Source: an uncultured Mycoplasmatota bacterium | Lineage (GTDB): Bacteria; Bacillota_I; Bacilli_A; RF39; UBA660 | Length of the DNA: 64,000 nucleotides | Assembly: GCA_900554315.1 (NCBI GenBank) | Contig: USGP01000001.1 | Span: forward strand, 36,902 to 100,901 | Reading direction: 5' to 3' | Shown here: positions 3,987-57,277 of the stretch, piece by piece | Layout: each line of letters opens with the position of its first letter | Numbering within the stretch: position 1 is the stretch's first letter | Position numbers and translations under genes: made by a program | The notes under the pieces: generated by a model | Databases searched by the model: none | The model's input: only the letters and a program-made list of their open reading frames with translations | Told to the model about the DNA's origin: nothing

Positions 3987-6080
3987 ATGAAAAATATAAA
4001 AAATAGTTTAAATAGACTACTAGTCAAAGTAAAAAAAGGACTAAAACATATAAAAGAAGATCATTTAATTAGAGAATATGCTAAAAATAATGTATTGTTT
4101 TTAGTATTTGTTATTACTTGTGTAATCAACTCGACACTACTTAGATTTTTTTGTATTAATTCAACAGAAAACTATTTAGCTATAGCACCAATTTTAGCAG
4201 ATTTAGCAGTAGTAACAATAGTAGGAGGACTGGGATACTTATTAAAGCCTAAAAATAGATTTACCTATTATTTATGCTTTAGTATATTTTTTACAGCAAT
4301 ATGTTTGATTAACTCAATTTATTATACTTACTACACATCATTTGCATCTGTTTCAATGTTATCTTTAACACAATATGTTGGAGATGTTGGAGATGCTGTA
4401 GTAGAACAAGTAATTCAGTTTAAGGATTTCTTATATATTTTAGGCCCAATTATATTAATTGTTGTTAATTCTAGATTAAAAAAGAAAAACTATTATAAAA
4501 AAGTAGAAGTAAAATCAGAAAGAAAGAAAAGAACCATTCAAACAGTTGCTGTTGGTGCGGTTTTTGTAATTATTTTCTTATTTACTTTAACTCCAACTGA
4601 TATATCAAGATTAGTAAAACAATGGAACCGTGAATATATCGTTATGAAATATGGTATTTATATTTACCAAGCAAACGATGTAGTAGCATCTATTCAACCA
4701 AAGATTAATTCTTTATTTGGATATGATCAAGCAAAGAAAACATTTAAAGATTATTTTAAAGAACATCCATATGAACATGAAGATAATAAATATACTAATA
4801 TTTTCGAAGGAAAAAATGTAATTGTTATTCATGGAGAAAGTTTACAAACTAATTTAATGAGTTTATCATTTAATGGGGAAGAAGTAACACCAAATCTTAA
4901 TAAATTAGCAAGTGAAGGAATGTTCTTCTCAAACTTCTATTCTCCAGTAAGTGTTGGAACAAGTAGTGATGCAGAATTGATGTTTAATACATCTCTACTA
5001 CCAACAAGGAGTGGAACAGCATTTGTATCTTATTCAGATAGAACATACAATGCAACACCCAAATTATTAGCTGAAAAAGGATATTATACATTCAGTATGC
5101 ATGGTAATAATGCAGACTTCTGGAACAGAAGAAATATGCATAAGAGTTTAGGATACGATAGATTCTATAGTAAAGAAGACTACAATGTAACAAAAGAAAA
5201 TACAGTTGGTTTAGGAATTAACGACTATGCTTTCTTTGATCAATCTGTGGACAAATTAGTGAAGATTAATAAGAAATATGATAAATGGTATGGTATGATG
5301 ATGATGTTATCTAACCATACACCATTCTCAGAAGTAGATAAATATGGAGACTTCCCAGTAGATATAAAAGAAACAGTAACCAATCCAGATGGAACAACAG
5401 AAGAAGTAACATATCCATATATGGAAGGAACAAAATTAGGCAACTACTTTAAATCAGCACATTATGCAGATGGTGCAATTGGAGAATTGATTGACCGCTT
5501 GGATGAAGAAGGATTACTTGATAATACAGTAATTGTTATCTATGGAGACCATGATGCTAAACTACCAAGAGCCGATTATAATAGATTATATAATTATGAT
5601 AAAGAAACAGATTCAGTACTTGATGAAGACGATCCTAATTATAAAGAATATGATTCTTATCAATATGAACTAGGTAGAAAAGTTCCATTAATCATTTGGA
5701 CAAAAGATATGAAAGGAACAGACCTAAATAAAAAATATACAAATGTAATGAGTATGTATGATGTAGAACCAACATTAGGAAATATGTTTGGATATAAAAA
5801 TGAATATGCTTTAGGACACGACATATTTGATATCAAAGATAATAACATCGTAGTATTTCCAAATGGAAACTGGTTAACCAACGATGTATATTACAACAGT
5901 CAAAAAGGTGAATACTTATCATTAACAGATAAACCAGTAACAGAAGAAGAAATTAAAAAGAATAGTCAATATGCTAGTGATATGTTAGATGTATCAAATG
6001 ACATAATTGTATTTGATCTATTAAAGAAAGATCAAACAGATGAAAATAGAGTAATCGAAAAACAAGAGGAAGGAAATTAG
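3987..6080 (+). CDS. ltaS: lipoteichoic acid synthase family protein (N-terminal polytopic domain + extracellular sulfatase-type domain)
   Basis: 697 aa. About five N-terminal TM segments, then sulfatase-fold motifs (VIVIHGESLQ, MHGNNADFWNRRNMHKSLGYDRFYS, LSNHTPF, VIVIYGDHD). Confidence 0.8.
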   Translation: MKNIKNSLNRLLVKVKKGLKHIKEDHLIREYAKNNVLFLVFVITCVINSTLLRFFCINSTENYLAIAPILADLAVVTIVGGLGYLLKPKNRFTYYLCFSIFFTAICLINSIYYTYYTSFASVSMLSLTQYVGDVGDAVVEQVIQFKDFLYILGPIILIVVNSRLKKKNYYKKVEVKSERKKRTIQTVAVGAVFVIIFLFTLTPTDISRLVKQWNREYIVMKYGIYIYQANDVVASIQPKINSLFGYDQAKKTFKDYFKEHPYEHEDNKYTNIFEGKNVIVIHGESLQTNLMSLSFNGEEVTPNLNKLASEGMFFSNFYSPVSVGTSSDAELMFNTSLLPTRSGTAFVSYSDRTYNATPKLLAEKGYYTFSMHGNNADFWNRRNMHKSLGYDRFYSKEDYNVTKENTVGLGINDYAFFDQSVDKLVKINKKYDKWYGMMMMLSNHTPFSEVDKYGDFPVDIKETVTNPDGTTEEVTYPYMEGTKLGNYFKSAHYADGAIGELIDRLDEEGLLDNTVIVIYGDHDAKLPRADYNRLYNYDKETDSVLDEDDPNYKEYDSYQYELGRKVPLIIWTKDMKGTDLNKKYTNVMSMYDVEPTLGNMFGYKNEYALGHDIFDIKDNNIVVFPNGNWLTNDVYYNSQKGEYLSLTDKPVTEEEIKKNSQYASDMLDVSNDIIVFDLLKKDQTDENRVIEKQEEGN

Positions 6081-37737: not shown

Positions 37738-37765
37738 AACTTCTCAAAAGTGAGAAGCCTTTTTA
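37738..37765. terminator. bidirectional intrinsic terminator
   Basis: CTTCTCA-AAAG-TGAGAAG hairpin flanked by an A-run (37728-37736) and CCTTTTTATTT, between convergent genes. Confidence 0.7.
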
Positions 37766-39361
37766 TTTACATTTTCCTAAGTTTATACAAGAGTCATAGT
37801 AAGTGGATTTTTTCTGTAATTCCTGATCAATATAATCATTACCATATTTTTCACTTAATGTTTGTTTATTACTAAATAAATTAGTACCAAGACCTAATCG
37901 ATTACCTTCTATTTTTACTCCTAAAGAAGCAAGCGTAGTAGGGTAATAATCAAAAGTAGTAAAATCTCTATTTTTATTATTATCTGTATCAACAGCAGAA
38001 TTTAAATAAACATTATAAACTCGACGTTCATATCCGCCTGGTAAGTTATCAAATGAAGTAGTATTCATACTAAGATGATCACCAGCTAAAATAACAGTCG
38101 TATTATCATAAAAATCTTGATCTTGAATCCATTCAATAAATTCACCAAGTTGCATATCAGAACAGTAAATAGCATTTAAATAAGGATTGCTTGAATAATT
38201 AGGACAGAAATCACTTTCATATCCCTCTGGCATATGAGTATCAACAGTAAGCATGGTAAAATTAAATGGTTCATCACCATCAGCCACGTTTTCGAGCTCT
38301 TGTTTTGCATATTCATATAAATATTCGTCTTCATATCCCCAGAAAACATAATAATCATCAGGGATAATTCCATCTTCTCTAGCAGTATACAAATCAAATA
38401 CTTGATAATCACCGTGACCTTCATAATACGTTCTTCTACCACCAAAAGACAAATCAGATCCAACCATGATAGATTGATGATATCCTTCATCTGCCAATAT
38501 GTCACCAATAGTCGTAGCACCATTTACAAGACCATTTTCATAATTTGCTTCTTGATTGGCATCAGCAGCAATAAAAGGAGTTTTTATTGGAATACCAGCA
38601 GTAGCAGCAACCATTCCTCCCATAGTCCAAGTAGCACCAAAAGGCATATGAGCTCCACCAACGTTATCTGTATTAGAAAAGTTAATATTATCTTCTGCTA
38701 ACTCTGTAAGATTAGGAATATAATTATAAGGATATCCACCACCATGTCTATAATCAGTATAAGTAGACTCCATAGACTCTAAATAAATATAAATCAGATT
38801 TCTCTTTTTCTTAGGGAATTCCAACTTTACATCCTTAGGATTCACATATTCTTTTTCAAAAAAATTAGAAGTTTTAGTATTTGCTTCAATATAGTCCTCA
38901 ATATATAATTTATCCATAGCATAAACAATAGAATCAGATAAATTAAATAAAGGAATACAAAAAGCAATTAAAAATATGATAACTGCAATATTAAACTTAA
39001 TATTGAAAGTCTTCTTAAATAAACGAATTTGTAATTGAATTTTACTATTTCTAAATAACACTTTATAAATAATATAAATAACAATAAAAATACCTAATGC
39101 AATCAAAGTTGTTTGTAGTGGAGGATAAATGTTAGACTGAAAAAAGTCTTCTAAAATATCCTTACTAGCAGTAGTAACAGAAGTACCTAAGGTATATAAA
39201 ATTTCATCAAATGATGTAAAACTATAATTTTCAACAGCCCAATCAGTACCTAGACGTAAAGCCATAGATAAAAAGATAGCTAAGAAAAATAGTATAACAA
39301 AAAGAAGACTAATGCTTCCTTTTATAATTTTCGCTAAAATTTTTAGTATCTTTTTTAGCAT
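37763..39361 (-). CDS. LTA synthase/phosphoglycerol-transferase family protein (sulfatase-type domain), possibly the 3' part of a frameshifted gene
   Basis: 532 aa. Three TMs, then LIYIYLESMES, GATWTMGGMVAATAG, VDTHMP and VILAGDHLSM sulfatase-fold motifs. Confidence 0.8.
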   Translation of the reverse strand: MLKKILKILAKIIKGSISLLFVILFFLAIFLSMALRLGTDWAVENYSFTSFDEILYTLGTSVTTASKDILEDFFQSNIYPPLQTTLIALGIFIVIYIIYKVLFRNSKIQLQIRLFKKTFNIKFNIAVIIFLIAFCIPLFNLSDSIVYAMDKLYIEDYIEANTKTSNFFEKEYVNPKDVKLEFPKKKRNLIYIYLESMESTYTDYRHGGGYPYNYIPNLTELAEDNINFSNTDNVGGAHMPFGATWTMGGMVAATAGIPIKTPFIAADANQEANYENGLVNGATTIGDILADEGYHQSIMVGSDLSFGGRRTYYEGHGDYQVFDLYTAREDGIIPDDYYVFWGYEDEYLYEYAKQELENVADGDEPFNFTMLTVDTHMPEGYESDFCPNYSSNPYLNAIYCSDMQLGEFIEWIQDQDFYDNTTVILAGDHLSMNTTSFDNLPGGYERRVYNVYLNSAVDTDNNKNRDFTTFDYYPTTLASLGVKIEGNRLGLGTNLFSNKQTLSEKYGNDYIDQELQKKSTYYDSCINLGKCK

Positions 39362-50599: not shown

Positions 50600-51436
50600 A
50601 TGCTACTTTATAAAAATACATTTGATAATATAAAGACAGAAAATCATAACTTTCCTGTAGAAGACCAATATTATGCTACTGATACAATGGCAATTGTTGC
50701 AGATGGTATTACAAGAGATCCAGTAGGAGTTTTTGATTTATCAAGTATTAGCAACGAAGAATTTATTAAAAAATACCCACGCCCTAGTGGAGCAGAGCTA
50801 GCAGCAAAAACAATTTGTGACACGTATAAAAAATCTTCAGGCACTCCAAAAGAACGATTAATTCGATGCAATCAAGCGGTAAAAGCATTAAATGACAGAT
50901 ATATTGCCACATGTGATTATTTACAAAATGATTATTATGGAGCTGTTGCTGCTGCAGTAATCATACAAGAAAACACTCTATATTATGCCTATATCTGTGA
51001 TTGTGGGGTTATTATTTATGACAAAGAAGGAAATATAAAATTTCAAACAGAAGATGATAAAACAAAATATAGTGATTCCTATATCAACAAAATAGGCATT
51101 CCTTGGGATTTACCAGAATCAAGAGTGATTGTAAGAAGAGATTATAGAAACAATCCAGAAAACATCCAAGATGGTCATTGCGTATCTTATGGAGCCCTAA
51201 CAGGAGAAGACACCGCAATTCAGTTTATTCAAAGTGGAACACAACCATTATCCTCAGGAGACCTAGTGGTCGTATATAGTGATGGTATCAGTAACTTTCT
51301 TCATGAACCAAATTTTATTAATAAACTTTTAAATTTCAATAGCCAAGAATTAGAAGAATATATGAATACTCAAGCATCAACCGACTATAGTAAATATGGA
51401 AAAGAGAAAACTTTAGTATTACTAAAAAAAGAATAG
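50600..51436 (+). CDS. PP2C-like (PP2C_2-type) putative protein phosphatase
   Basis: 278 aa. MAIVADGITRDP, GAVAAAVII..NTLYYAYICDCG and VVVYSDGISNF resemble the PP2C-fold motif order. A candidate promoter TTGTAT-18-GATAAT lies at 50550-50579. Confidence 0.5.
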   Translation: MLLYKNTFDNIKTENHNFPVEDQYYATDTMAIVADGITRDPVGVFDLSSISNEEFIKKYPRPSGAELAAKTICDTYKKSSGTPKERLIRCNQAVKALNDRYIATCDYLQNDYYGAVAAAVIIQENTLYYAYICDCGVIIYDKEGNIKFQTEDDKTKYSDSYINKIGIPWDLPESRVIVRRDYRNNPENIQDGHCVSYGALTGEDTAIQFIQSGTQPLSSGDLVVVYSDGISNFLHEPNFINKLLNFNSQELEEYMNTQASTDYSKYGKEKTLVLLKKE

Positions 51437-51445
51437 GAAATAACA

Positions 51446-51925
51446 ATGTCAAAGATAAGCAATGTATTAACCATGATAGAATACCTAAGTACAGGAAGAA
51501 AATATACAATAAAAGAACTGTCTGAAAAGCTAGAAGTATCACCCAGAATGATTAGAGTATATAAAGATGAAATAGAAAAAGCAGGAATTTATATTGATAC
51601 CATAAAAGGGCCATATGGAGGTTATGTACTAAATCAGAATGTAAGAGTACCAAAAAGGTTTATTACTCCTAATGAAATTAATATTGAAAATAAAGAGTTT
51701 TTTAATCAAATCAACCGAGCTATCAAAGAAAAAAGAAAATGTTGGATTGAATATTATTCAAAAAATAGAAAAGGAATATCAGATAGAATTATTCATCCCT
51801 ATGATTTAATATTATTAGGAAATGAATGGGGAGTAGCAGCATATTGTGAATCTAAAGAAGAAATAAGACATTTTTATATCAACAGAATAAAACAAATAAA
51901 AATATTAGAAGAAAAATATAACTGA
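51446..51925 (+). CDS. compact HTH (HTH_11/DeoR-type) + WYL-domain transcriptional regulator
   Basis: 159 aa. ISNVLTMIEYLSTGRKYTIKELSEKLEVSPRMIRVYKDEIEKAGIYIDTIKGPYGGYVL (wHTH), then CWIEYYSKNRKGISDRIIHPYDLILLGNEWGVAAYC (WYL-like). No C-terminal extension domain. Confidence 0.65.
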   Translation: MSKISNVLTMIEYLSTGRKYTIKELSEKLEVSPRMIRVYKDEIEKAGIYIDTIKGPYGGYVLNQNVRVPKRFITPNEINIENKEFFNQINRAIKEKRKCWIEYYSKNRKGISDRIIHPYDLILLGNEWGVAAYCESKEEIRHFYINRIKQIKILEEKYN

Positions 51926-51937
51926 CAGTTATATTAC

Positions 51938-51980
51938 CTCTTCTTTTGCTAACATCAAGTTAGAAAAGGAGAGTTTTTTT
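51938..51980 (+). terminator. strong intrinsic terminator whose 3' arm contains the SD of the next gene
   Basis: 15-bp stem (51938-51953 pairs with 51959-51973, one bulged G48, one G-U) and loop ATCAA, followed by T7 (51974-51980) and then ATG 51981. AAAGGAGAG of the 3' arm is the only SD for the downstream gene. Confidence 0.65.
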
Positions 51981-52985
51981 ATGACAGAATCAATGAATGT
52001 AAATTTTTCAAAATTAAAAGAAAGATTATTAGCCGTAAATCATCCAGAATTAGGGCATTATCAAGAAATGAAAGACTTACTTTGCAAATTAGTAGAGTTA
52101 GATACTCCCACTTTACTTCTCGCAACAGGAGGATCTAAAGTAGTAGCCTATTATCTAGAATATATATTAGAAAGGATAGGAAAAGATAATTTAATCTGTA
52201 CAGTAATAGAGCCAAGAGATTTCTTTTATCAACCAAATATAAAAAACTATAAAAACTTAGTAGCAATATCTGCGAGTGGCAAGACAAATGGAATCAAAGA
52301 AGCCTTAGAACAATTTTCAGGAAACTGTTTTCTAATTTGCGAACATGAACAAAACGCCCCATATTCAGTTGTTTCCTGGAGTACAGAAAAAACAGAAAAA
52401 GAGCACAGCTTTACGTCACTTTTAACATCTCTTGCTCCAATGACATTAATGCTAGATGCCACAACTTCATTAGACAAAATTTTAACCAGGGAGGAGATAG
52501 AAAAAATAAATGATACTATTTCTTCTTTATTAGAGAAAAGTGAAAAAAGAAGTACAGAAGAAGACTTTAGCCATACAAGGTTAGTCCAAATTATGAGTGG
52601 AATAGATACCAAACCATCTAGTTCTATACTAGAATCTAATTTAACAGAAACAGGAATAGCTATTCCTATTGTTCACGATAAAGGCTCTTTCTGCCACGGA
52701 AGAAGTAATTTACTATATCAATATCCTGATAGTAAAATGATATATTTATCTCATAAAAACAGTGAATTTGATAATCTATTAATCGATATTTTAACAGAAC
52801 AATATCACAATGTATCCATCTTTTCTCCAACTACAGATGAACCTTATTGGCAGGAATATGAACTAATGCTACAGATGTATTATTTATCTAAAAAGATTGC
52901 TAGTGATAAAAATATGGATGTTACAAAACCCGCCTATAATAAAAAATTAGTAAAAACACTATACCAATATAGAGGTAGATTATAA
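51981..52985 (+). CDS. double SIS-domain protein (sugar-phosphate isomerase/deglycase-like)
   Basis: 334 aa. LLLATGGSKVVAYYLEYIL and LVAISASGKTNGIKEAL (SIS 1). The second half has SFCHGRSNLL, resembling the (E/K)F.HGP motif of C-terminal SIS domains. Confidence 0.55.
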   Translation: MTESMNVNFSKLKERLLAVNHPELGHYQEMKDLLCKLVELDTPTLLLATGGSKVVAYYLEYILERIGKDNLICTVIEPRDFFYQPNIKNYKNLVAISASGKTNGIKEALEQFSGNCFLICEHEQNAPYSVVSWSTEKTEKEHSFTSLLTSLAPMTLMLDATTSLDKILTREEIEKINDTISSLLEKSEKRSTEEDFSHTRLVQIMSGIDTKPSSSILESNLTETGIAIPIVHDKGSFCHGRSNLLYQYPDSKMIYLSHKNSEFDNLLIDILTEQYHNVSIFSPTTDEPYWQEYELMLQMYYLSKKIASDKNMDVTKPAYNKKLVKTLYQYRGRL

Positions 52986-53038
52986 AGAAATTAGACACAT
53001 AAATAAAATGATGATATACTAACAGCTGAGGTGTAACT

Positions 53039-54082
53039 ATGACAAAGAAAAAACTAGAAGAATTAAAAGAAAAACTAATAAAAAAAGATAAAAAGGATCA
53101 AAAAGTTACCGATTTAAATCAAAAAATAAATGACTTTATTTTAAACTACAGACAAGTAACAAAAAGTAATCCTCAAATGTTTGCTTCTCCCAAAGCTATT
53201 AGACATTTAATTGATAAAGTCGCAATATGGTATGAATTAAGATATCCAGATTATGATGTCAACAGAATCATTCCAATGGGATTAATAGACGGTACTCAAA
53301 GTAGCCAAGAAATGTTTGAACATAATCCAATGTATCAAGGAGAAGAAAATAATTGGCAAGATTTTTATAACTATGAAACTTTTATAAATGCTTTACCAGT
53401 ATTAGAAAGATTATATTTAAAAGACTTAAATTATCCACAGATTGTATATTTAGATGTAGAAGAAAAAGGAATCAATCCAGAAACGGGTAGACCAATTGTT
53501 GTAAAAGTACCACAAGCCCATCTTCATTTAACAAAAGATGGACATGTAGAGCAAGCAGAATTTCTTGAAACAATAAACGGAACAAAACCAGAAGACCTTG
53601 TATTAAAAGGAAAAAGTCTAAAAGAAGCAGTAGAAGAATTAGAACATCACGGAATCATAATCCCAAAAAAATCAGAAGCTAAAAATGTGATAAGAATTCA
53701 TCAAATAATGGAAAAGACAAAAGAAGGAATCCTAGACTGTGCAATGTATGAAATCATTGAACGGGGAGGATCTAAATTAGGACCTAGACGAGGCTTATTA
53801 TTTGCGAGTGAACTAGAAAGAGACATAGATATTCCTATGAAATATGGAATAGATTATAGTAATACAGATGCCTTGATGAATTTAATAGAAACATATATAG
53901 AATTAGGTGGAAAAAAAGATTTAGAATGTTATGAAGGGTATTTCTACCATCCTAAAAATACAGAACTAAATACCCAATCATTACAAAATATTGTTTCAGT
54001 AATAGATAATTCTAGAGTACCTAACCAACCTAATGAACAGCCTAAAATATATACAAGAACAAGTACTGTTCCAAAAGAATAG
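53039..54082 (+). CDS. hypothetical protein
   Basis: 347-aa ORF with SD GAGGTG. No signal peptide or TM. No family recognised. Confidence 0.55.
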   Translation: MTKKKLEELKEKLIKKDKKDQKVTDLNQKINDFILNYRQVTKSNPQMFASPKAIRHLIDKVAIWYELRYPDYDVNRIIPMGLIDGTQSSQEMFEHNPMYQGEENNWQDFYNYETFINALPVLERLYLKDLNYPQIVYLDVEEKGINPETGRPIVVKVPQAHLHLTKDGHVEQAEFLETINGTKPEDLVLKGKSLKEAVEELEHHGIIIPKKSEAKNVIRIHQIMEKTKEGILDCAMYEIIERGGSKLGPRRGLLFASELERDIDIPMKYGIDYSNTDALMNLIETYIELGGKKDLECYEGYFYHPKNTELNTQSLQNIVSVIDNSRVPNQPNEQPKIYTRTSTVPKE

Positions 54083-54154
54083 TACTTTTTTCTTGCAAAA
54101 ATAAAATGAAACTATGATATAATGAAAAAAGATAGAGTGGTAGGAAGTGTAAAT

Positions 54155-57100
54155 ATGAGAGAAGAAAGAATGACTTATATTGAAAACTATATTAATGACT
54201 TGAGTAATCAATTAGAAAAAATGGGTATAGTGGTTCCTACAGACCAATTAAATAGGCTAATAAATAGATATAAATATAGTACGAGTCCTATAAATGAAAT
54301 AATAGAGGAAATTAATCAGGTAGCAGAAGAATATGTATCCCGTATTCGTCAAATACAACAGGCAAGAGAAAAATTAAAAGATTCCCAAAATAGAAAAGAA
54401 CTATCAACTTTACCAGTTCAATATCAAGGAATTACCCTAAATCAACAAGACATTGAATTAATGAAAATTGTAGATGCGAAATCCTTGGAACAACTTCGTC
54501 AAGTAGTAAAACAAATTCCAATATTAAAAGGAAAAGACATAGATTTCTCTCAAGACCTAGAATCTGCAATCGAAAGTGCGTTTCATACTTACCAAGATAG
54601 TCTTATTTCGATAGAAGATACATTAGAAGATCCTATGTTAGTATTAAGAAAGAAATTAGAACTTTTCCTTTCTTCAGAGGATGTATCACCAGAAATAAAA
54701 GAAAAAGTAAGACCAATAGTAGATACATCAGAATCAAGAGAAGAGGTCGCAAAAAAACTAGAACAAGTATTAACAGAAGAAGAACAACATGAAGCCTATG
54801 GAATCATCAATAACTTGACAGTAGTAGAAAAAGAAGGAATAAAGCAAACAAAAATAGAAGCAGTTAGGAATTTATTAGAACAAGTAAGAAGTAGAAATTC
54901 CATTACATTAGATGAAGTAGGAAAATATGGTAATATCGTTCTACCAGATGGCAGTTTTAATTTTACCAAGTTACAAGAATGTCTTGATTTTGCTAAACAA
55001 GAAGGAAAAAAAGTAAGAATTAATACGTTGATATTTTATATGGATTGTCCTAAAGAATTATATGACTTAGAAAAAACAGAAGAAAATAAAGAACTAGTAA
55101 AACAAAAATTAATGGATTATGTAGATGCTACTACGAAATTTATAAGAGATAACGGATATAGTGAGACTGTTAGAAGTATCGATGTCATGAATGAAGTACT
55201 AAATAGATTTCCTATGACCGGAAACCAACCATATCAATATCGAGGAGATATTACTTCAAGCTCTTTGGATGACAATATAATGGCAGGTTGGCTAAAACAT
55301 TTAACAATAGAAGATTTATGCGATGTATTAACAGTAGCGAGAAAAAATCTACCAAGTACAGATTTCATGTATAATGAGGATAACTTAGTAGACCCTAATA
55401 AACTACCACTAACTTTTGAAATGCTAAATAGAATTCAACAATATGAAAAAACTCACAATATAAGATTGATAGATAGTATAGGAACACAAATGCATATCAA
55501 CAGCAATGTAAAAAATCAAGACGTAAAAAATATGTTTCATCAATTACAAAAGTTACGATTACCAATTGAAATTACAGAATTTGATTTAAAAATGGTAGAT
55601 GGAAAGTCTGGAGATTTACAAACCGAAATTGCAAGACAACTAAAAATAAATGACCTATACAGTATCTTTCAAGAAGAACCCAATCTAAGAGGCTTTACCA
55701 TCTGGAGTAAAACAGATAGCCAAAGTTTTTTAGTAGCATTAGAAAATAGAGAAAGAAAAAAACATAAACAACCATTCATAAAAAGTCAAAATGCCGGGTA
55801 TTTTACCGAGAAAATGACAGAAAAAAGTGAAGCTTTAGGTAGAGAGTTAACACCACAAAAATATAACTATCATACACATACCAATCGTTGTGGACACGCT
55901 AGTATCGCAACAGATAAAGAATATGTAGCTCTAGCCAAAGAAAGTGGTATCCAAACATTAGGGTTTTCCGACCATATTCCAAATCCTAGTATAGAATTTC
56001 CACAAGATAAAAATAGAATGACTCCTGAAAGTTTTGGAGAATATCTGTTTTCAATCAGAAGTCTTGCTAAAGAAAATCCAGATATGACCATTCTCTGTGG
56101 ATTAGAAGCCGAATATGATTCAAGAAAAATTACGTATTTAAATGAATTAAAAAATAAATTAGATTATCTAATTTTAGGACAACATTTTGTAATAGAAAAT
56201 GCTAAAAAGGTAAAAAAAGATTCTCCAGATTATCCGTTAAAATACGCAAAAAGTGTCTGTGAAGCAATGGATACAGGATTATTTGACATTGTAGCTCATC
56301 CTGATATTTTTATGGAAACTAGAGATTTAATTTCTGAACAAGAACGACCTCTGTTTGATAAAAATGCTCAAATAGCTAGTAAAATGATATGTGAAAAATC
56401 CAAAGACTTAGGAATACCCCTAGAAATCAACTTAAAAAATTTAGAAGGAAATAAAACTTCTATTCCATATCCTAATCCTATGTTTTGGAGTGAAGCCGCT
56501 AAAGTACAAGCTCCTGTCTTATATGGAGCAGACGCTCACACTCCAGCAAGCTTATTGAATATGACAGAAAACAGAAATAAGGTATCTTCTATCATACCAA
56601 CATCCAAACTAAACTTTGTAAAGAGTGACTATAACCCTGTAAAAGATAGGCCAAAAGAGTTAATAGAAAGACGAAAGAATGTAGAAAAGGAAAGCAAAAC
56701 ATATGAAACCCAGCTAGTTACTTACTTAATTTCATCAGCAACAGAAGAAAATAAAAAAGAATCAATAGAGTCACAAATCCACAGTGTGCTTCAAAAAGGT
56801 GCTCAAAAGACAGTGGAGGATGGTCAAAAGAAGCTAGCAAAAAGAAAAGAACAAATTATGCAGATTGGTAATAATCCTAACTTATCAAATAGAGAAAAAG
56901 CATTTTTACTAACAAGAACAAAAAATACAATCAAATCCATTAGAGAGACCATGAAGAAAAGAGAAAATGTATTATCCTCTGCTATGGAAGATGTAAGAAC
57001 AGCAACCACATTAGGATGTACAACAAAAAAAGAATACATAAAAACAGTAGGAGAGTTGACAGAACAACGAACAAATAAGAAAAAAGGAAATACAGAAGAA

Positions 57101-57277
57101 CTAGCTTCTATGTTTCATCAGCCTAAGCAACAAGAAGCACCAAAAGCAATAGAAAAACCAAAGACATATTCTAAAAGAGAAAATAAAAATACTACAGGAA
57201 TGATTACTCCAGCAGGAATATTATTGTTAACTGGCTTTCTTCTATTGACAATGGCTATTCTTATGAATTTAGTATAA
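54155..57277 (+). CDS. multidomain protein: helical N-terminal region + GH10-like (beta/alpha)8 domain + PHP (HisJ-type) phosphoesterase domain + coiled-coil + C-terminal TM anchor
   Basis: GH10-like order FAKQEGKKVRINTL, IDVMNEVLN, DSIGTQMHI, PIEITEFDL, FTIWSKTDSQSF. PHP motifs YHTHTNRCGHAS, GFSDHIP, GLEAEY, VAHPD, GADAHTP. Terminal ITPAGILLLTGFLLLTMAILMNLV. ATG 54122 overlaps a TGATATAAT box, so 54155 is preferred. Confidence 0.65.
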   Translation: MREERMTYIENYINDLSNQLEKMGIVVPTDQLNRLINRYKYSTSPINEIIEEINQVAEEYVSRIRQIQQAREKLKDSQNRKELSTLPVQYQGITLNQQDIELMKIVDAKSLEQLRQVVKQIPILKGKDIDFSQDLESAIESAFHTYQDSLISIEDTLEDPMLVLRKKLELFLSSEDVSPEIKEKVRPIVDTSESREEVAKKLEQVLTEEEQHEAYGIINNLTVVEKEGIKQTKIEAVRNLLEQVRSRNSITLDEVGKYGNIVLPDGSFNFTKLQECLDFAKQEGKKVRINTLIFYMDCPKELYDLEKTEENKELVKQKLMDYVDATTKFIRDNGYSETVRSIDVMNEVLNRFPMTGNQPYQYRGDITSSSLDDNIMAGWLKHLTIEDLCDVLTVARKNLPSTDFMYNEDNLVDPNKLPLTFEMLNRIQQYEKTHNIRLIDSIGTQMHINSNVKNQDVKNMFHQLQKLRLPIEITEFDLKMVDGKSGDLQTEIARQLKINDLYSIFQEEPNLRGFTIWSKTDSQSFLVALENRERKKHKQPFIKSQNAGYFTEKMTEKSEALGRELTPQKYNYHTHTNRCGHASIATDKEYVALAKESGIQTLGFSDHIPNPSIEFPQDKNRMTPESFGEYLFSIRSLAKENPDMTILCGLEAEYDSRKITYLNELKNKLDYLILGQHFVIENAKKVKKDSPDYPLKYAKSVCEAMDTGLFDIVAHPDIFMETRDLISEQERPLFDKNAQIASKMICEKSKDLGIPLEINLKNLEGNKTSIPYPNPMFWSEAAKVQAPVLYGADAHTPASLLNMTENRNKVSSIIPTSKLNFVKSDYNPVKDRPKELIERRKNVEKESKTYETQLVTYLISSATEENKKESIESQIHSVLQKGAQKTVEDGQKKLAKRKEQIMQIGNNPNLSNREKAFLLTRTKNTIKSIRETMKKRENVLSSAMEDVRTATTLGCTTKKEYIKTVGELTEQRTNKKKGNTEELASMFHQPKQQEAPKAIEKPKTYSKRENKNTTGMITPAGILLLTGFLLLTMAILMNLV

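What the first reader, a model, noticed from the sequence alone, without database searches (positions are those of the whole stretch)
54155..57277. Unusual tail-anchored fusion of a GH10-like glycosidase fold and a PHP phosphoesterase
Seen in sequence: the full GH10 motif order is present, with acid/base NE in IDVMNEVLN, nucleophile E in PIEITEFDL, GTQMHI and TIWSKTDSQSF. Next come the complete His/Asp ligand series of a HisJ-type PHP domain (YHTHTNRCGH, SDH, EAEY, AHPD, DAH). Then follows a coiled-coil and a single TM at the extreme C-terminus. There is no N-terminal signal peptide.

Inference: both catalytic domains would face the cytoplasm, anchored to the membrane by the tail. I know of no described GH10-PHP architecture. 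The combination hints at processing of a phosphorylated glycan or lipid-linked intermediate.
Basis: partly seen in the sequence, partly recalled or inferred. Interest (0 to 1): 0.6.

Follow-up and report, generated by a model that had tools for sequence, protein, structure and literature searches.

The report
Tail-anchored GH10-like/PHP two-enzyme protein
This gene encodes a real, conserved but unstudied protein of small-genome gut bacteria that joins a xylanase-like sugar-cutting domain to a phosphate-removing domain and probably holds both on the inner side of the cell membrane; its substrate is unknown.

Summary
ORF 54155-57277 (+) encodes a 1040-aa protein with significant Pfam matches to GH10 (E 1.7e-27) and PHP (E 1.2e-11). 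There is one hydrophobic segment, at the extreme C-terminus, and no N-terminal signal.

It is not a fusion artefact. At least 315 clusters of full-length homologues carry the same two Pfam domains, all from uncultured, small-genome gut Bacilli. In 62 aligned homologues both GH10 glutamates and nine of the ten PHP metal ligands are invariant; His726 is at least 90% conserved. AlphaFold gives a confident model (pLDDT 87.6).

Topology signals favour a cytoplasm-facing tail anchor.

New points:
- The core module is PHP + helical stalk + tail anchor, and it is common on its own.
- The GH10-like part, with a novel helical N-domain, also occurs alone, sometimes with its own tail anchor.
- Some relatives have degenerate active sites.
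- The genome shows no xylose isomerase, GH43 or histidinol dehydrogenase, so xylan use and histidine synthesis are unlikely roles.
- Synteny with the SIS-like and 347-aa genes is not conserved, and the gene has its own promoter.

The substrate is undetermined. A membrane-proximal phospho-glycoconjugate is a guess. This is a new variant of known enzyme kinds, of moderate interest.

The parts
54061..54087 (+). Terminator-like hairpin followed by a T-run, ending the upstream 347-aa gene
   Evidence: 11-pair stem, T-rich tail. It separates this gene from its upstream neighbour.
54093..54123 (+). Sigma-A-type promoter: TTGCAA, a 19-nt spacer (16 nt, then TGa), then TATAAT (extended -10)
   Evidence: Read from the sequence. 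A TGnTATAAT box recurs upstream of the gene in at least 11 of 20 homologue loci. The scan tool missed it because the spacer exceeds 18 nt.
54155..57277 (+). Coding sequence of the GH10-like/PHP tail-anchored protein (1040 aa from the ATG at 54155; residue numbers in this report count from the upstream ATG at 54122)
54155..54892 (+). Novel all-helical N-domain (residues 12-257) with the invariant motif GITLN-Q-DI (103-111)
   Evidence: No Pfam match in 20 homologues. No PDB fold match at E<1. The motif forms a strand with pLDDT 96-98 only in the full-length model, which suggests (inference, no coordinates) that it packs on the rest of the protein. It always accompanies the GH10-like domain.
54893..55801 (+). 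GH10-like (beta/alpha)8 barrel (residues 258-560). Acid/base Asn357-Glu358 (Glu codon 55193-55195); nucleophile Glu486 (codon 55577-55579)
   Evidence: Pfam E 1.7e-27. Foldseek top hits are all GH10 xylanases, E about 1e-12, TM 0.70-0.77. N357, E358, Q456, H458, E486, D488 and W528 are invariant in 62 homologues. The canonical GH10 His, Trp and His of the 'GHTLxWH' motif are Asn301, Phe305 and Tyr306 (alignments).
55859..56626 (+). HisJ-type PHP phosphoesterase domain (residues 580-835) with ligands H584, H586, H592, D617, H618, E662, H688, H726, D804, H806
   Evidence: Pfam E 1.2e-11. NCBIfam histidinol-phosphatase models match below cut-off. PDB 2yxo E 3.9e-10. Ligand conservation.
56627..57076 (+). 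Helical stalk (residues 836-985) with the conserved YNP..R, YET and GC-TK motifs
   Evidence: AlphaFold helices 845-857, 861-873, 882-916, 923-963 and 969-984, pLDDT about 90. No Pfam match. It travels with PHP and the TM as one module.
57077..57205 (+). Disordered, Lys/Gln-rich linker (residues 986-1028)
   Evidence: pLDDT below 50 for 987-1028. Lowest conservation of all segments.
57206..57274 (+). C-terminal transmembrane tail anchor (residues 1029-1051)
   Evidence: The only hydrophobic segment in all 62 homologues. AlphaFold helix 1030-1050.

Best explanation
The gene encodes a single-pass, tail-anchored membrane protein whose whole folded part faces the cytoplasm. That part is a novel helical N-domain, a GH10-like retaining beta-glycosidase barrel, a HisJ-type metal-dependent PHP phosphoesterase and a helical stalk.

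Both enzyme domains are probably active. A roughly 40-residue flexible linker tethers them to the inner face of the membrane.

It is not a plant-xylan xylanase and not the histidinol phosphatase of histidine synthesis.

The evolutionary core is the PHP-stalk-tail-anchor module. The N-domain/GH10-like unit is an add-on that can also be tail-anchored by itself. This argues that both activities are needed at the membrane.

Inferred and not shown: the pair acts in sequence on a membrane-proximal glycoconjugate that carries phosphate. Candidates are a glycolipid or phosphoglycolipid head group, the lipoteichoic-acid anchor, or an undecaprenyl-phosphate-linked intermediate. One domain would cut a beta-glycosidic bond and the other a phosphoester.

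Confidence by part:
- Architecture: about 0.95.
- Cytoplasmic tail-anchored topology: about 0.8.
- Catalytic competence: about 0.75.
- Substrate class: about 0.25.
For: **Domains and fold**
- The full-length AlphaFold model is confident (pLDDT 87.6, pTM 0.73).
- Foldseek places the barrel in GH10.

**Family and conservation**
- At least 315 full-length clusters carry the same two Pfam domains.
- The catalytic residues and nine of ten PHP ligands are invariant in 62 sequences (H726 at least 90%).
- They are intact in 12 of the 14 full-length representatives (clusters at 50% identity) among the 150 best hits.

**Topology**
- There is one C-terminal hydrophobic segment and no N-terminal one. Charge before the TM is positive in 57 of 62.
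- C400 and C757 are invariant. C309, C590, C713 and C966 are at least 90% conserved. By established knowledge, exported proteins of Firmicutes are cysteine-poor.

**Modularity**
- Among the 150 best representatives there are 37 PHP-stalk-TM proteins, 6 N-GH10-TM proteins and 8 N-GH10 proteins. Split forms also occur in the same order.

**Evidence against the default roles in this genome**
- No HisD, no xylose isomerase and no GH43 were found in the 93%-complete genome.
- The GH10 His/Trp/His of GHTLxWH are replaced by Asn301/Phe305/Tyr306.

**Compatible with the substrate guess**
- The genome has a UgtP-like glycolipid synthase and two LtaS-like proteins but no TagB/F.

**Expression**
- The gene has its own sigma-A-type promoter, with an equivalent box upstream in most homologue loci.
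Against: - No experiment and no transcript data support any of this.
- Gene neighbourhood gives no glycan, lipid or envelope partner. The flanks are housekeeping genes and vary between lineages: scpA/scpB, tsaEBD, FIST, NUDIX, mfd/spoVT.
- The distribution is patchy. Only 2 of 201 sampled genomes of the order have the full-length form, which is odd for a core envelope function.
- Several relatives have lost catalytic residues in one or both domains but keep the stalk and TM. Part of the function may therefore be non-enzymatic.
- Topology is predicted only.
- Active-site geometry could not be inspected because no model coordinates were available.
Confidence: 0.55

Rival explanations
1. It is an intracellular xylo-oligosaccharide hydrolase, like the signal-less GH10 enzymes IXT6 and XynB, that happens to be fused to an unrelated phosphatase. 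The membrane tether places it next to an oligosaccharide importer.
For: - The best sequence and fold matches are GH10 xylanases, including the intracellular IXT6 and XynB.
- The catalytic pair and the Gln, His and Trp of the -1 subsite are intact.
Against: - No xylose isomerase or GH43 was found in the 93%-complete genome.
- The canonical GH10 His/Trp/His are replaced by Asn301/Phe305/Tyr306, invariantly.
- No transporter or xylose genes lie nearby in any lineage.
- This reading does not explain the conserved PHP partner or the separate tail-anchoring of both modules.
Confidence: 0.12
2. It is mainly a structural or scaffolding membrane protein, built around the stalk and anchor, in which the enzyme folds serve as binding modules and not as catalysts.
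For: - About a dozen PHP-stalk-TM representatives and a few full-length ones have degenerate ligands or catalytic residues yet keep the stalk and TM.
- The protein evolves fast compared with its neighbours: about 50% identity against 63-92% for flanking genes in L001 and L006.
Against: - In the main family, the glycosidase residues and nine of the ten metal ligands are invariant across 62 sequences that are otherwise only about 40% identical.
- The two catalytic domains are the best conserved parts.
Confidence: 0.1
3. It is a surface-exposed enzyme, with the N-terminus outside and a C-terminal anchor or sorting signal, that degrades dietary or host glycans after export by a non-classical route.
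For: - GH10 enzymes are typically secreted.
- A Gly (G1026) is conserved just before the hydrophobic tail, and some homologues end in Gly-Gly, which loosely recalls C-terminal sorting signals.
- The gene lies next to a SipW-linked surface-protein locus.
Against: - No N-terminal signal or hydrophobic segment is seen in 62 of 62 homologues, the charge before the TM is positive, and at most 4 residues follow it.
- Six cysteines are conserved.
- There is no LXG/WXG or other export-domain match.
- The neighbouring SipW locus is linked only in the closest relatives.
Confidence: 0.07
4. The PHP domain is the organism's histidinol-phosphate phosphatase (HisJ), here fused to other domains.
For: - The best NCBIfam hits are histidinol-phosphatase models.
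- PDB hit 2yxo is a histidinol phosphatase.
- The only database name found is 'histidinol-phosphatase (PHP family)'.
Against: - All NCBIfam scores are far below the curated cut-offs (93 against 202 bits, 61 against 90).
- No histidinol dehydrogenase was found in the genome.
Confidence: 0.03
5. It is an assembly or gene-calling artefact that joins two separate genes.
For: Split forms (N-GH10 alone, PHP-stalk-TM alone) exist in related genomes.
Against: - The frame is uninterrupted here.
- At least 315 independent full-length clusters from many assemblies share the architecture, as do 23 species-level genomes.
- The single-chain model is confident, with pTM 0.73.
Confidence: 0.01

Closest known systems
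Glycoside hydrolase family 10 endo-beta-1,4-xylanases, especially the signal-less intracellular ones (IXT6 of Geobacillus stearothermophilus, XynB of Paenibacillus barcinonensis)
   Same: - (beta/alpha)8 fold: Foldseek E about 1e-12, TM 0.70-0.77.
- A Pfam GH10 match above the cut-off.
- Asn-Glu acid/base, Glu nucleophile in TEFD, Gln-x-His and the Trp of the -1 subsite are all kept.
- No signal peptide.
   Different: - Only 15-20% identity to solved GH10 structures.
- The His/Trp/His of GHTLxWH become Asn301/Phe305/Tyr306, and the distal Trp becomes Phe536.
- A 250-residue novel helical domain precedes the barrel.
- The domain is fused to PHP and tail-anchored.
- The host genome lacks detectable xylose-utilisation genes.
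HisJ-type PHP histidinol-phosphate phosphatases (COG1387; for example T. thermophilus 2yxo and B. subtilis/L. lactis HisJ)
   Same: - PHP fold with the full His/Asp/Glu ligand set for a trinuclear metal site.
- The best family-level matches are HisJ models.
   Different: - Scores lie well below the equivalog and subfamily cut-offs.
- No histidine pathway marker was found in the genome.
- The domain is followed by a 150-residue helical stalk and a tail anchor that known HisJ enzymes lack.
Bacterial tail-anchored membrane proteins; by analogy, membrane-tethered cytoplasmic phosphoesterases such as RNase Y
   Same: A single terminal TM tethers a coiled or helical segment and a metal-dependent phosphoesterase to the cytoplasmic face of the membrane.
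   Different: - RNase Y is N-terminally anchored and uses an HD domain on RNA.
- There is no homology. The comparison concerns layout only (from general knowledge, not tested).

Membership tests
Glycoside hydrolase family 10 (Pfam PF00331; clan GH-A) | Sequence match to the family model above the curated threshold | tested here: met
   96.9 bits against a cut-off of 22.1, E 1.7e-27. All 20 aligned homologues match.
Glycoside hydrolase family 10 (Pfam PF00331; clan GH-A) | (beta/alpha)8 barrel most similar to GH10 structures | tested here: met
   The top 50 Foldseek PDB hits are all GH10, TM (target) 0.52-0.77 (0.66 or more for single-domain chains).
Glycoside hydrolase family 10 (Pfam PF00331; clan GH-A) | Acid/base Glu in an Asn-Glu motif on strand 4 and nucleophile Glu on strand 7 | tested here: met
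   N357-E358 aligns with WDVVNE, and E486 with the (I/V)(T/S)ELD Glu, in the 3rdk and 3w24 alignments. Both are invariant in 62 sequences.
Glycoside hydrolase family 10 (Pfam PF00331; clan GH-A) | Canonical -1/-2 subsite residues (His and Trp of GHTLxWH, distal Trp), which are family-wide conserved by my recollection of the GH10 literature | tested here: not met
   His becomes Asn301, Trp becomes Phe305, His becomes Tyr306 and the distal Trp becomes Phe536, invariantly. Lys268, Gln456, His458 and Trp528 are retained.
Glycoside hydrolase family 10 (Pfam PF00331; clan GH-A) | Endo-beta-1,4-xylanase activity | not testable with these tools
   This needs an enzyme assay. The genome context argues against xylan use.
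PHP superfamily, HisJ subfamily (PF02811; TIGR01856) | Pfam PHP match above threshold | tested here: met
   45.7 bits against a cut-off of 26.4.
PHP superfamily, HisJ subfamily (PF02811; TIGR01856) | Complete His/Asp/Glu metal-ligand set | tested here: met
   H584, H586, H592, D617, H618, E662, H688, H726, D804 and H806 are conserved.
PHP superfamily, HisJ subfamily (PF02811; TIGR01856) | Score above the HisJ-family or histidinol-phosphatase curated cut-offs | tested here: not met
   TIGR01856 scores 61.2 against 90.2; NF005596 scores 93.3 against 202; NF005996 scores 59.8 against 133.
PHP superfamily, HisJ subfamily (PF02811; TIGR01856) | Presence of the histidine biosynthesis pathway in the genome | tested here: not met
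   No histidinol dehydrogenase was found in the 93%-complete genome, while the control matched in 14 of 14 reference genomes.
Tail-anchored membrane proteins | A single TM within about 30 residues of the C-terminus, no signal peptide, and the bulk of the protein cytoplasmic | tested here: inconclusive
   The sequence features are met in 62 of 62 homologues. The orientation is inferred from charge bias and conserved cysteines, not measured.

The most novel reading that the evidence does not exclude
The PHP-stalk-tail-anchor module, with its exchangeable N-terminal partners (GH10-like here, an unknown roughly 290-residue domain in a large 792-aa group), defines an unrecognised class of membrane-tethered cytoplasmic enzymes. 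These would edit or recycle phosphate-bearing glycolipids or lipid-linked glycan intermediates (for example the LTA glycolipid anchor or stalled undecaprenyl-phosphate intermediates) in reduced-genome, spore-forming gut Bacilli. The GH10 fold would be repurposed for a non-xylan, membrane-associated beta-glycoside.
Probability: 0.17. Interest if true: 0.75.

Novelty: new variant of a known kind. Interest (0 to 1): 0.5.

Why it matters
GH10 is treated almost everywhere as a secreted xylanase family, and HisJ-type PHP proteins as histidinol phosphatases. Automatic annotation will therefore mislabel this protein.

Both folds sit here in one conserved, membrane-tethered cytoplasmic protein. The host organisms appear to have neither xylose catabolism nor histidine synthesis. 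This points to an unknown substrate and a new use of the GH10 active site.

The hosts are abundant, uncultured, genome-reduced gut Bacilli whose envelope biology is essentially unknown. A retained 3-kb gene with its own promoter in a 1.3-Mb genome is likely to matter to them.

The family also offers a natural series of split, re-fused and catalytically dead variants. These are useful for studying how two-enzyme proteins and pseudoenzymes evolve.

Tried and rejected
- **Fusion artefact.** Rejected.
- **Functional operon with the SIS-like and 347-aa genes.** Rejected. They are conserved only in L006, with a terminator and promoter in between. The 334-aa and 347-aa proteins have no Pfam or PADLOC match.
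- **Conserved gene neighbourhood as a clue.** I clustered the ORFs of 23 loci and annotated the recurrent neighbours: ScpA/ScpB, TsaD, FIST, ABC permease, AI-2E transporter, NUDIX, mfd/spoVT. None relates to glycans or lipids.
- **Split halves as adjacent genes.** Not so. RNase Y, a T4SS coupling protein and FolD lie next to them.
- **Sporulation link.** 20 of 23 holder genomes have SpoIVA, but so do 177 of 201 genomes of the order, so the result is uninformative. The promoter looks sigma-A-like.
- **N-domain identity.** No Pfam hit and no PDB fold match. No LXG/WXG secretion domain.
- **Defence-system role.** No PADLOC hit for the protein.
- **Literature.** No paper combines 'GH10' and 'PHP domain'. 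Searches on tail-anchored glycosidases gave nothing relevant. The histidinol-phosphatase fingerprint paper I opened deals with HAD-type enzymes and did not help.
- **First genome-contig scan with the single protein.** It found nothing. The alignment-based scan worked.
- **Active-site geometry and domain packing.** I could not inspect them because model coordinates and PAE are not exposed.
Full report
**1. What is in the sequence**

The region holds one long ORF on the + strand, 54122..57277, 1051 aa. The first ATG (54122) overlaps a perfect extended -10 box: TGaTATAAT at 54115-54123, preceded by TTGCAA at 54093-54098. The ATG at 54155 has an AGGAAG ribosome-binding site 7 nt upstream. It also coincides with the N-terminus of homologues and of the database copy of this protein (1040 aa).

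A terminator-like hairpin (54061-54087) closes the upstream gene. The gene thus looks monocistronic with its own sigma-A-type promoter. A TGnTATAAT box also stands upstream of the gene in at least 11 of 20 homologue loci, and a TATAAT without the TG in several more.

**2. Domain assignments**

- Pfam gives Glyco_hydro_10 (E 1.7e-27, residues 250-539) and PHP (E 1.2e-11, residues 583-751), both well above the curated cut-offs.
- NCBIfam places the PHP part nearest to HisJ-type histidinol phosphatases. All scores are far below cut-off: 93 against 202, 61 against 90, 60 against 133.
- The best PDB sequence hits are GH10 xylanases (3rdk, 2.9e-10) and the T. thermophilus histidinol phosphatase 2yxo (3.9e-10).
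- In those alignments N357-E358 aligns with the GH10 acid/base motif WDVVNE. E486 aligns with the nucleophile Glu of the (I/V)(T/S)ELD motif, Q456/H458 with GxQxH, and W528 with the -1 subsite Trp.
- The GH10 motif GHTLxWH reads INTLIFY here, so His becomes Asn301, Trp becomes Phe305 and His becomes Tyr306. The distal Trp is Phe536.

**3. A real, conserved family**

A search of 5.8 billion proteins found at least 315 clusters with E below 0.001. The 120 best all carry GH10+PHP, and nearly all are 980-1100 aa long. No source gives them a name.

In an alignment of 62 homologues (about 40-50% identical to the query) the following are invariant: N357, E358, Q456, H458, E486, D488, W528, N301, F305, Y306 and the PHP ligands H584, H586, H592, H618, E662, H688, D804. 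D617, H726 and H806 are at least 90% conserved. The two catalytic domains are the best conserved parts (55-60% and 45-59% identity). The N-domain and stalk are at 25-40%.

A scan of one genome per GTDB species found 23 loci. All are in uncultured gut Bacilli MAGs, variously labelled 'Bacilli bacterium', 'Mycoplasma sp. CAG:877' and 'Erysipelotrichaceae', from human, ruminant, rabbit and other guts. The fusion is therefore not an artefact.

**4. Structure**

AlphaFold2 with the 62-sequence alignment gives mean pLDDT 87.6 and pTM 0.73. The model has these parts:
- a helical N-domain (9-257);
- a (beta/alpha)8 barrel (260-547);
- a PHP barrel (about 580-830);
- a helical stalk (845-984, with two long helices, 882-916 and 923-963);
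- a disordered linker (987-1028);
- a terminal helix (1030-1050).

Foldseek against the PDB returns GH10 xylanases only among the top 50 (E about 1e-12, TM 0.52-0.77).

The N-domain modelled alone (pLDDT 83) has no PDB match with E below 1 and no Pfam match in any of 20 homologues. The invariant GITLN-Q-DI motif (103-111) is a high-confidence strand only in the full-length model. In isolation it is poorly predicted. I infer that the N-domain packs onto the catalytic body, most likely the GH10 barrel it always accompanies.

**5. Topology**

- All 62 homologues have exactly one hydrophobic segment, at the extreme C-terminus, with 0-4 residues after it.
- None has a hydrophobic N-terminus.
- The 25 residues before the TM carry net positive charge in 57 of 62.
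- Six cysteines are invariant or nearly so. By established knowledge, exported proteins of Firmicutes are depleted in cysteine.
- No secretion-related domain was detected.

The best reading is a tail-anchored protein with everything but the last few residues in the cytoplasm. This is a prediction, not a measurement.

**6. Modular evolution (new)**

A full HMMER search of 1.84 billion representatives with the family profile gave 4553 hits, 595 of them at E up to 1e-30. I aligned the best 150 to the family model. They break down as follows:
- 14 full-length N-GH10-PHP-stalk-TM proteins, 12 with both catalytic sets intact;
- 37 PHP-stalk-TM proteins of about 470-510 aa;
- 6 N-GH10 proteins with their own C-terminal TM, plus 8 N-GH10 proteins without one;
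- 5 N-GH10-PHP proteins without stalk or TM;
- 48 stand-alone PHP proteins of about 260 aa.

A large group of about 792 aa joins a different, unidentified N-terminal part of about 290 aa to PHP-stalk-TM.

Within the window's own order only 25 of 201 sampled genomes have any piece and 2 have the full-length form. Split forms there are not encoded side by side.

About a dozen PHP-stalk-TM proteins and three long forms have lost metal ligands or catalytic residues while keeping the stalk and anchor.

Two conclusions follow:
- PHP-stalk-anchor is the ancestral chassis, and the GH10-like unit is one of several partners.
- Both enzymatic units have independently been tied to the membrane. This argues that the membrane surface is where they work.

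**7. What it is not**

The genome is 1.28 Mb and 93% complete, and the window is about 28% G+C. It has MraY, three SEDS proteins, Spo0A and SpoIVA, so the organism is a walled, probably spore-forming bacterium. This matches published descriptions of the reduced Bacilli orders RF39, RFN20 and ML615J-28 (PMC10868615).

No histidinol dehydrogenase, xylose isomerase or GH43 was found, while the controls matched in reference genomes. Together with the altered -1 subsite and the sub-threshold HisJ scores, this makes xylan or xylo-oligosaccharide catabolism and histidine biosynthesis unlikely roles.

There is no other copy of the gene in the genome and no defence-system match.

**8. Likely mechanism**

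*Shown:*
- two enzyme folds with complete catalytic inventories;
- conserved fusion;
- conserved tail anchor.

*Inferred:*
- cytoplasmic orientation;
- activity of both domains;
- action at the inner membrane face.

*Speculative:*
- The substrate is a glycoconjugate that carries both a beta-glycosidic bond and a phosphoester. Examples are a glycolipid or phosphoglycolipid head group, the LTA glycolipid anchor, or an undecaprenyl-phosphate-linked intermediate.
- The genome does encode a UgtP-like glycolipid synthase and two LtaS-like proteins, but no TagB/F. Such substrates are therefore plausible, but this is compatibility and not evidence.
- Gene neighbourhoods are housekeeping and variable and give no help.

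**9. Novelty and verdict**

No paper in the searchable library combines GH10 with a PHP domain. Where databases name relatives at all, they call them 'histidinol-phosphatase (PHP family)'.

The finding is a genuine, uncharacterised architecture that combines two well-known enzyme families with a novel N-domain and a tail anchor. I class it as a new variant of known kinds. Interest is moderate: the biology is probably new, but nothing here shows what it is.

Noticed in passing
window 54122-54157: The longest-ORF start (ATG 54122) lies inside the -10 box of the gene's own promoter. The same trap, 'tataATG', occurs in L001, so automatic longest-ORF calls over-extend this gene by 11 codons.
   Followed up: yes
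window 50600-54082 compared with L001 and L006: The PP2C-like, mini HTH-WYL, 334-aa and 347-aa genes form a variable island between scpB and this gene. L006 has three of them, while L001 has an unrelated 329-aa gene instead. Only the WYL protein hits PADLOC (WYL models). The 334-aa 'SIS' protein has no Pfam match.
   Followed up: partly
window 54155-57277 compared with its flanks in L001 and L006: This protein is only 49-52% identical to its positional orthologues, whereas flanking genes are 63-92% identical. This suggests unusually fast divergence or allelic replacement at a fixed locus.
   Followed up: partly
L004 3988-7017 and 9969-13229: One MAG carries two paralogues of the family (1009 and 1086 aa) within 10 kb.
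   Followed up: no
L025 6471-7895, L029 5223-6698, L027 5247-6824, L028 5149-7728; P0154, P0158, P0166, P0177, P0231: Relatives with degenerate PHP ligands or GH10 catalytic residues keep the stalk and tail anchor. They are candidate pseudoenzymes.
   Followed up: partly
window 3987-6080 (+) and 37763-39361 (-); G000:C13:29583-30074: The genome has two LtaS-like sulfatase-domain proteins, both inside the window, and one UgtP-like MGDG synthase. No TagB/F-type teichoic-acid polymerase was detected.
   Followed up: partly
Genomes G012, G015, G027, G034, G038, G048, G211, G219 and others: In about 17 of the 201 sampled genomes of the order (and in holder genomes G211 and G219), the SpoIVA ATPase domain matches as two pieces (positions about 1-124 and 120-237), sometimes on different contigs. 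This could be a split gene, an insertion or an assembly break.
   Followed up: no
P0235 (511 aa): A TruA pseudouridine synthase domain is fused to a HisJ-like PHP domain. It may be a real fusion or a gene-call merge.
   Followed up: no
P0274-P0299 (about 792 aa): A large group has an unidentified N-terminal part of about 290 residues in front of PHP-stalk-TM. In these the PHP motif reads HTHTYRSGHS (Cys replaced by Ser).
   Followed up: partly
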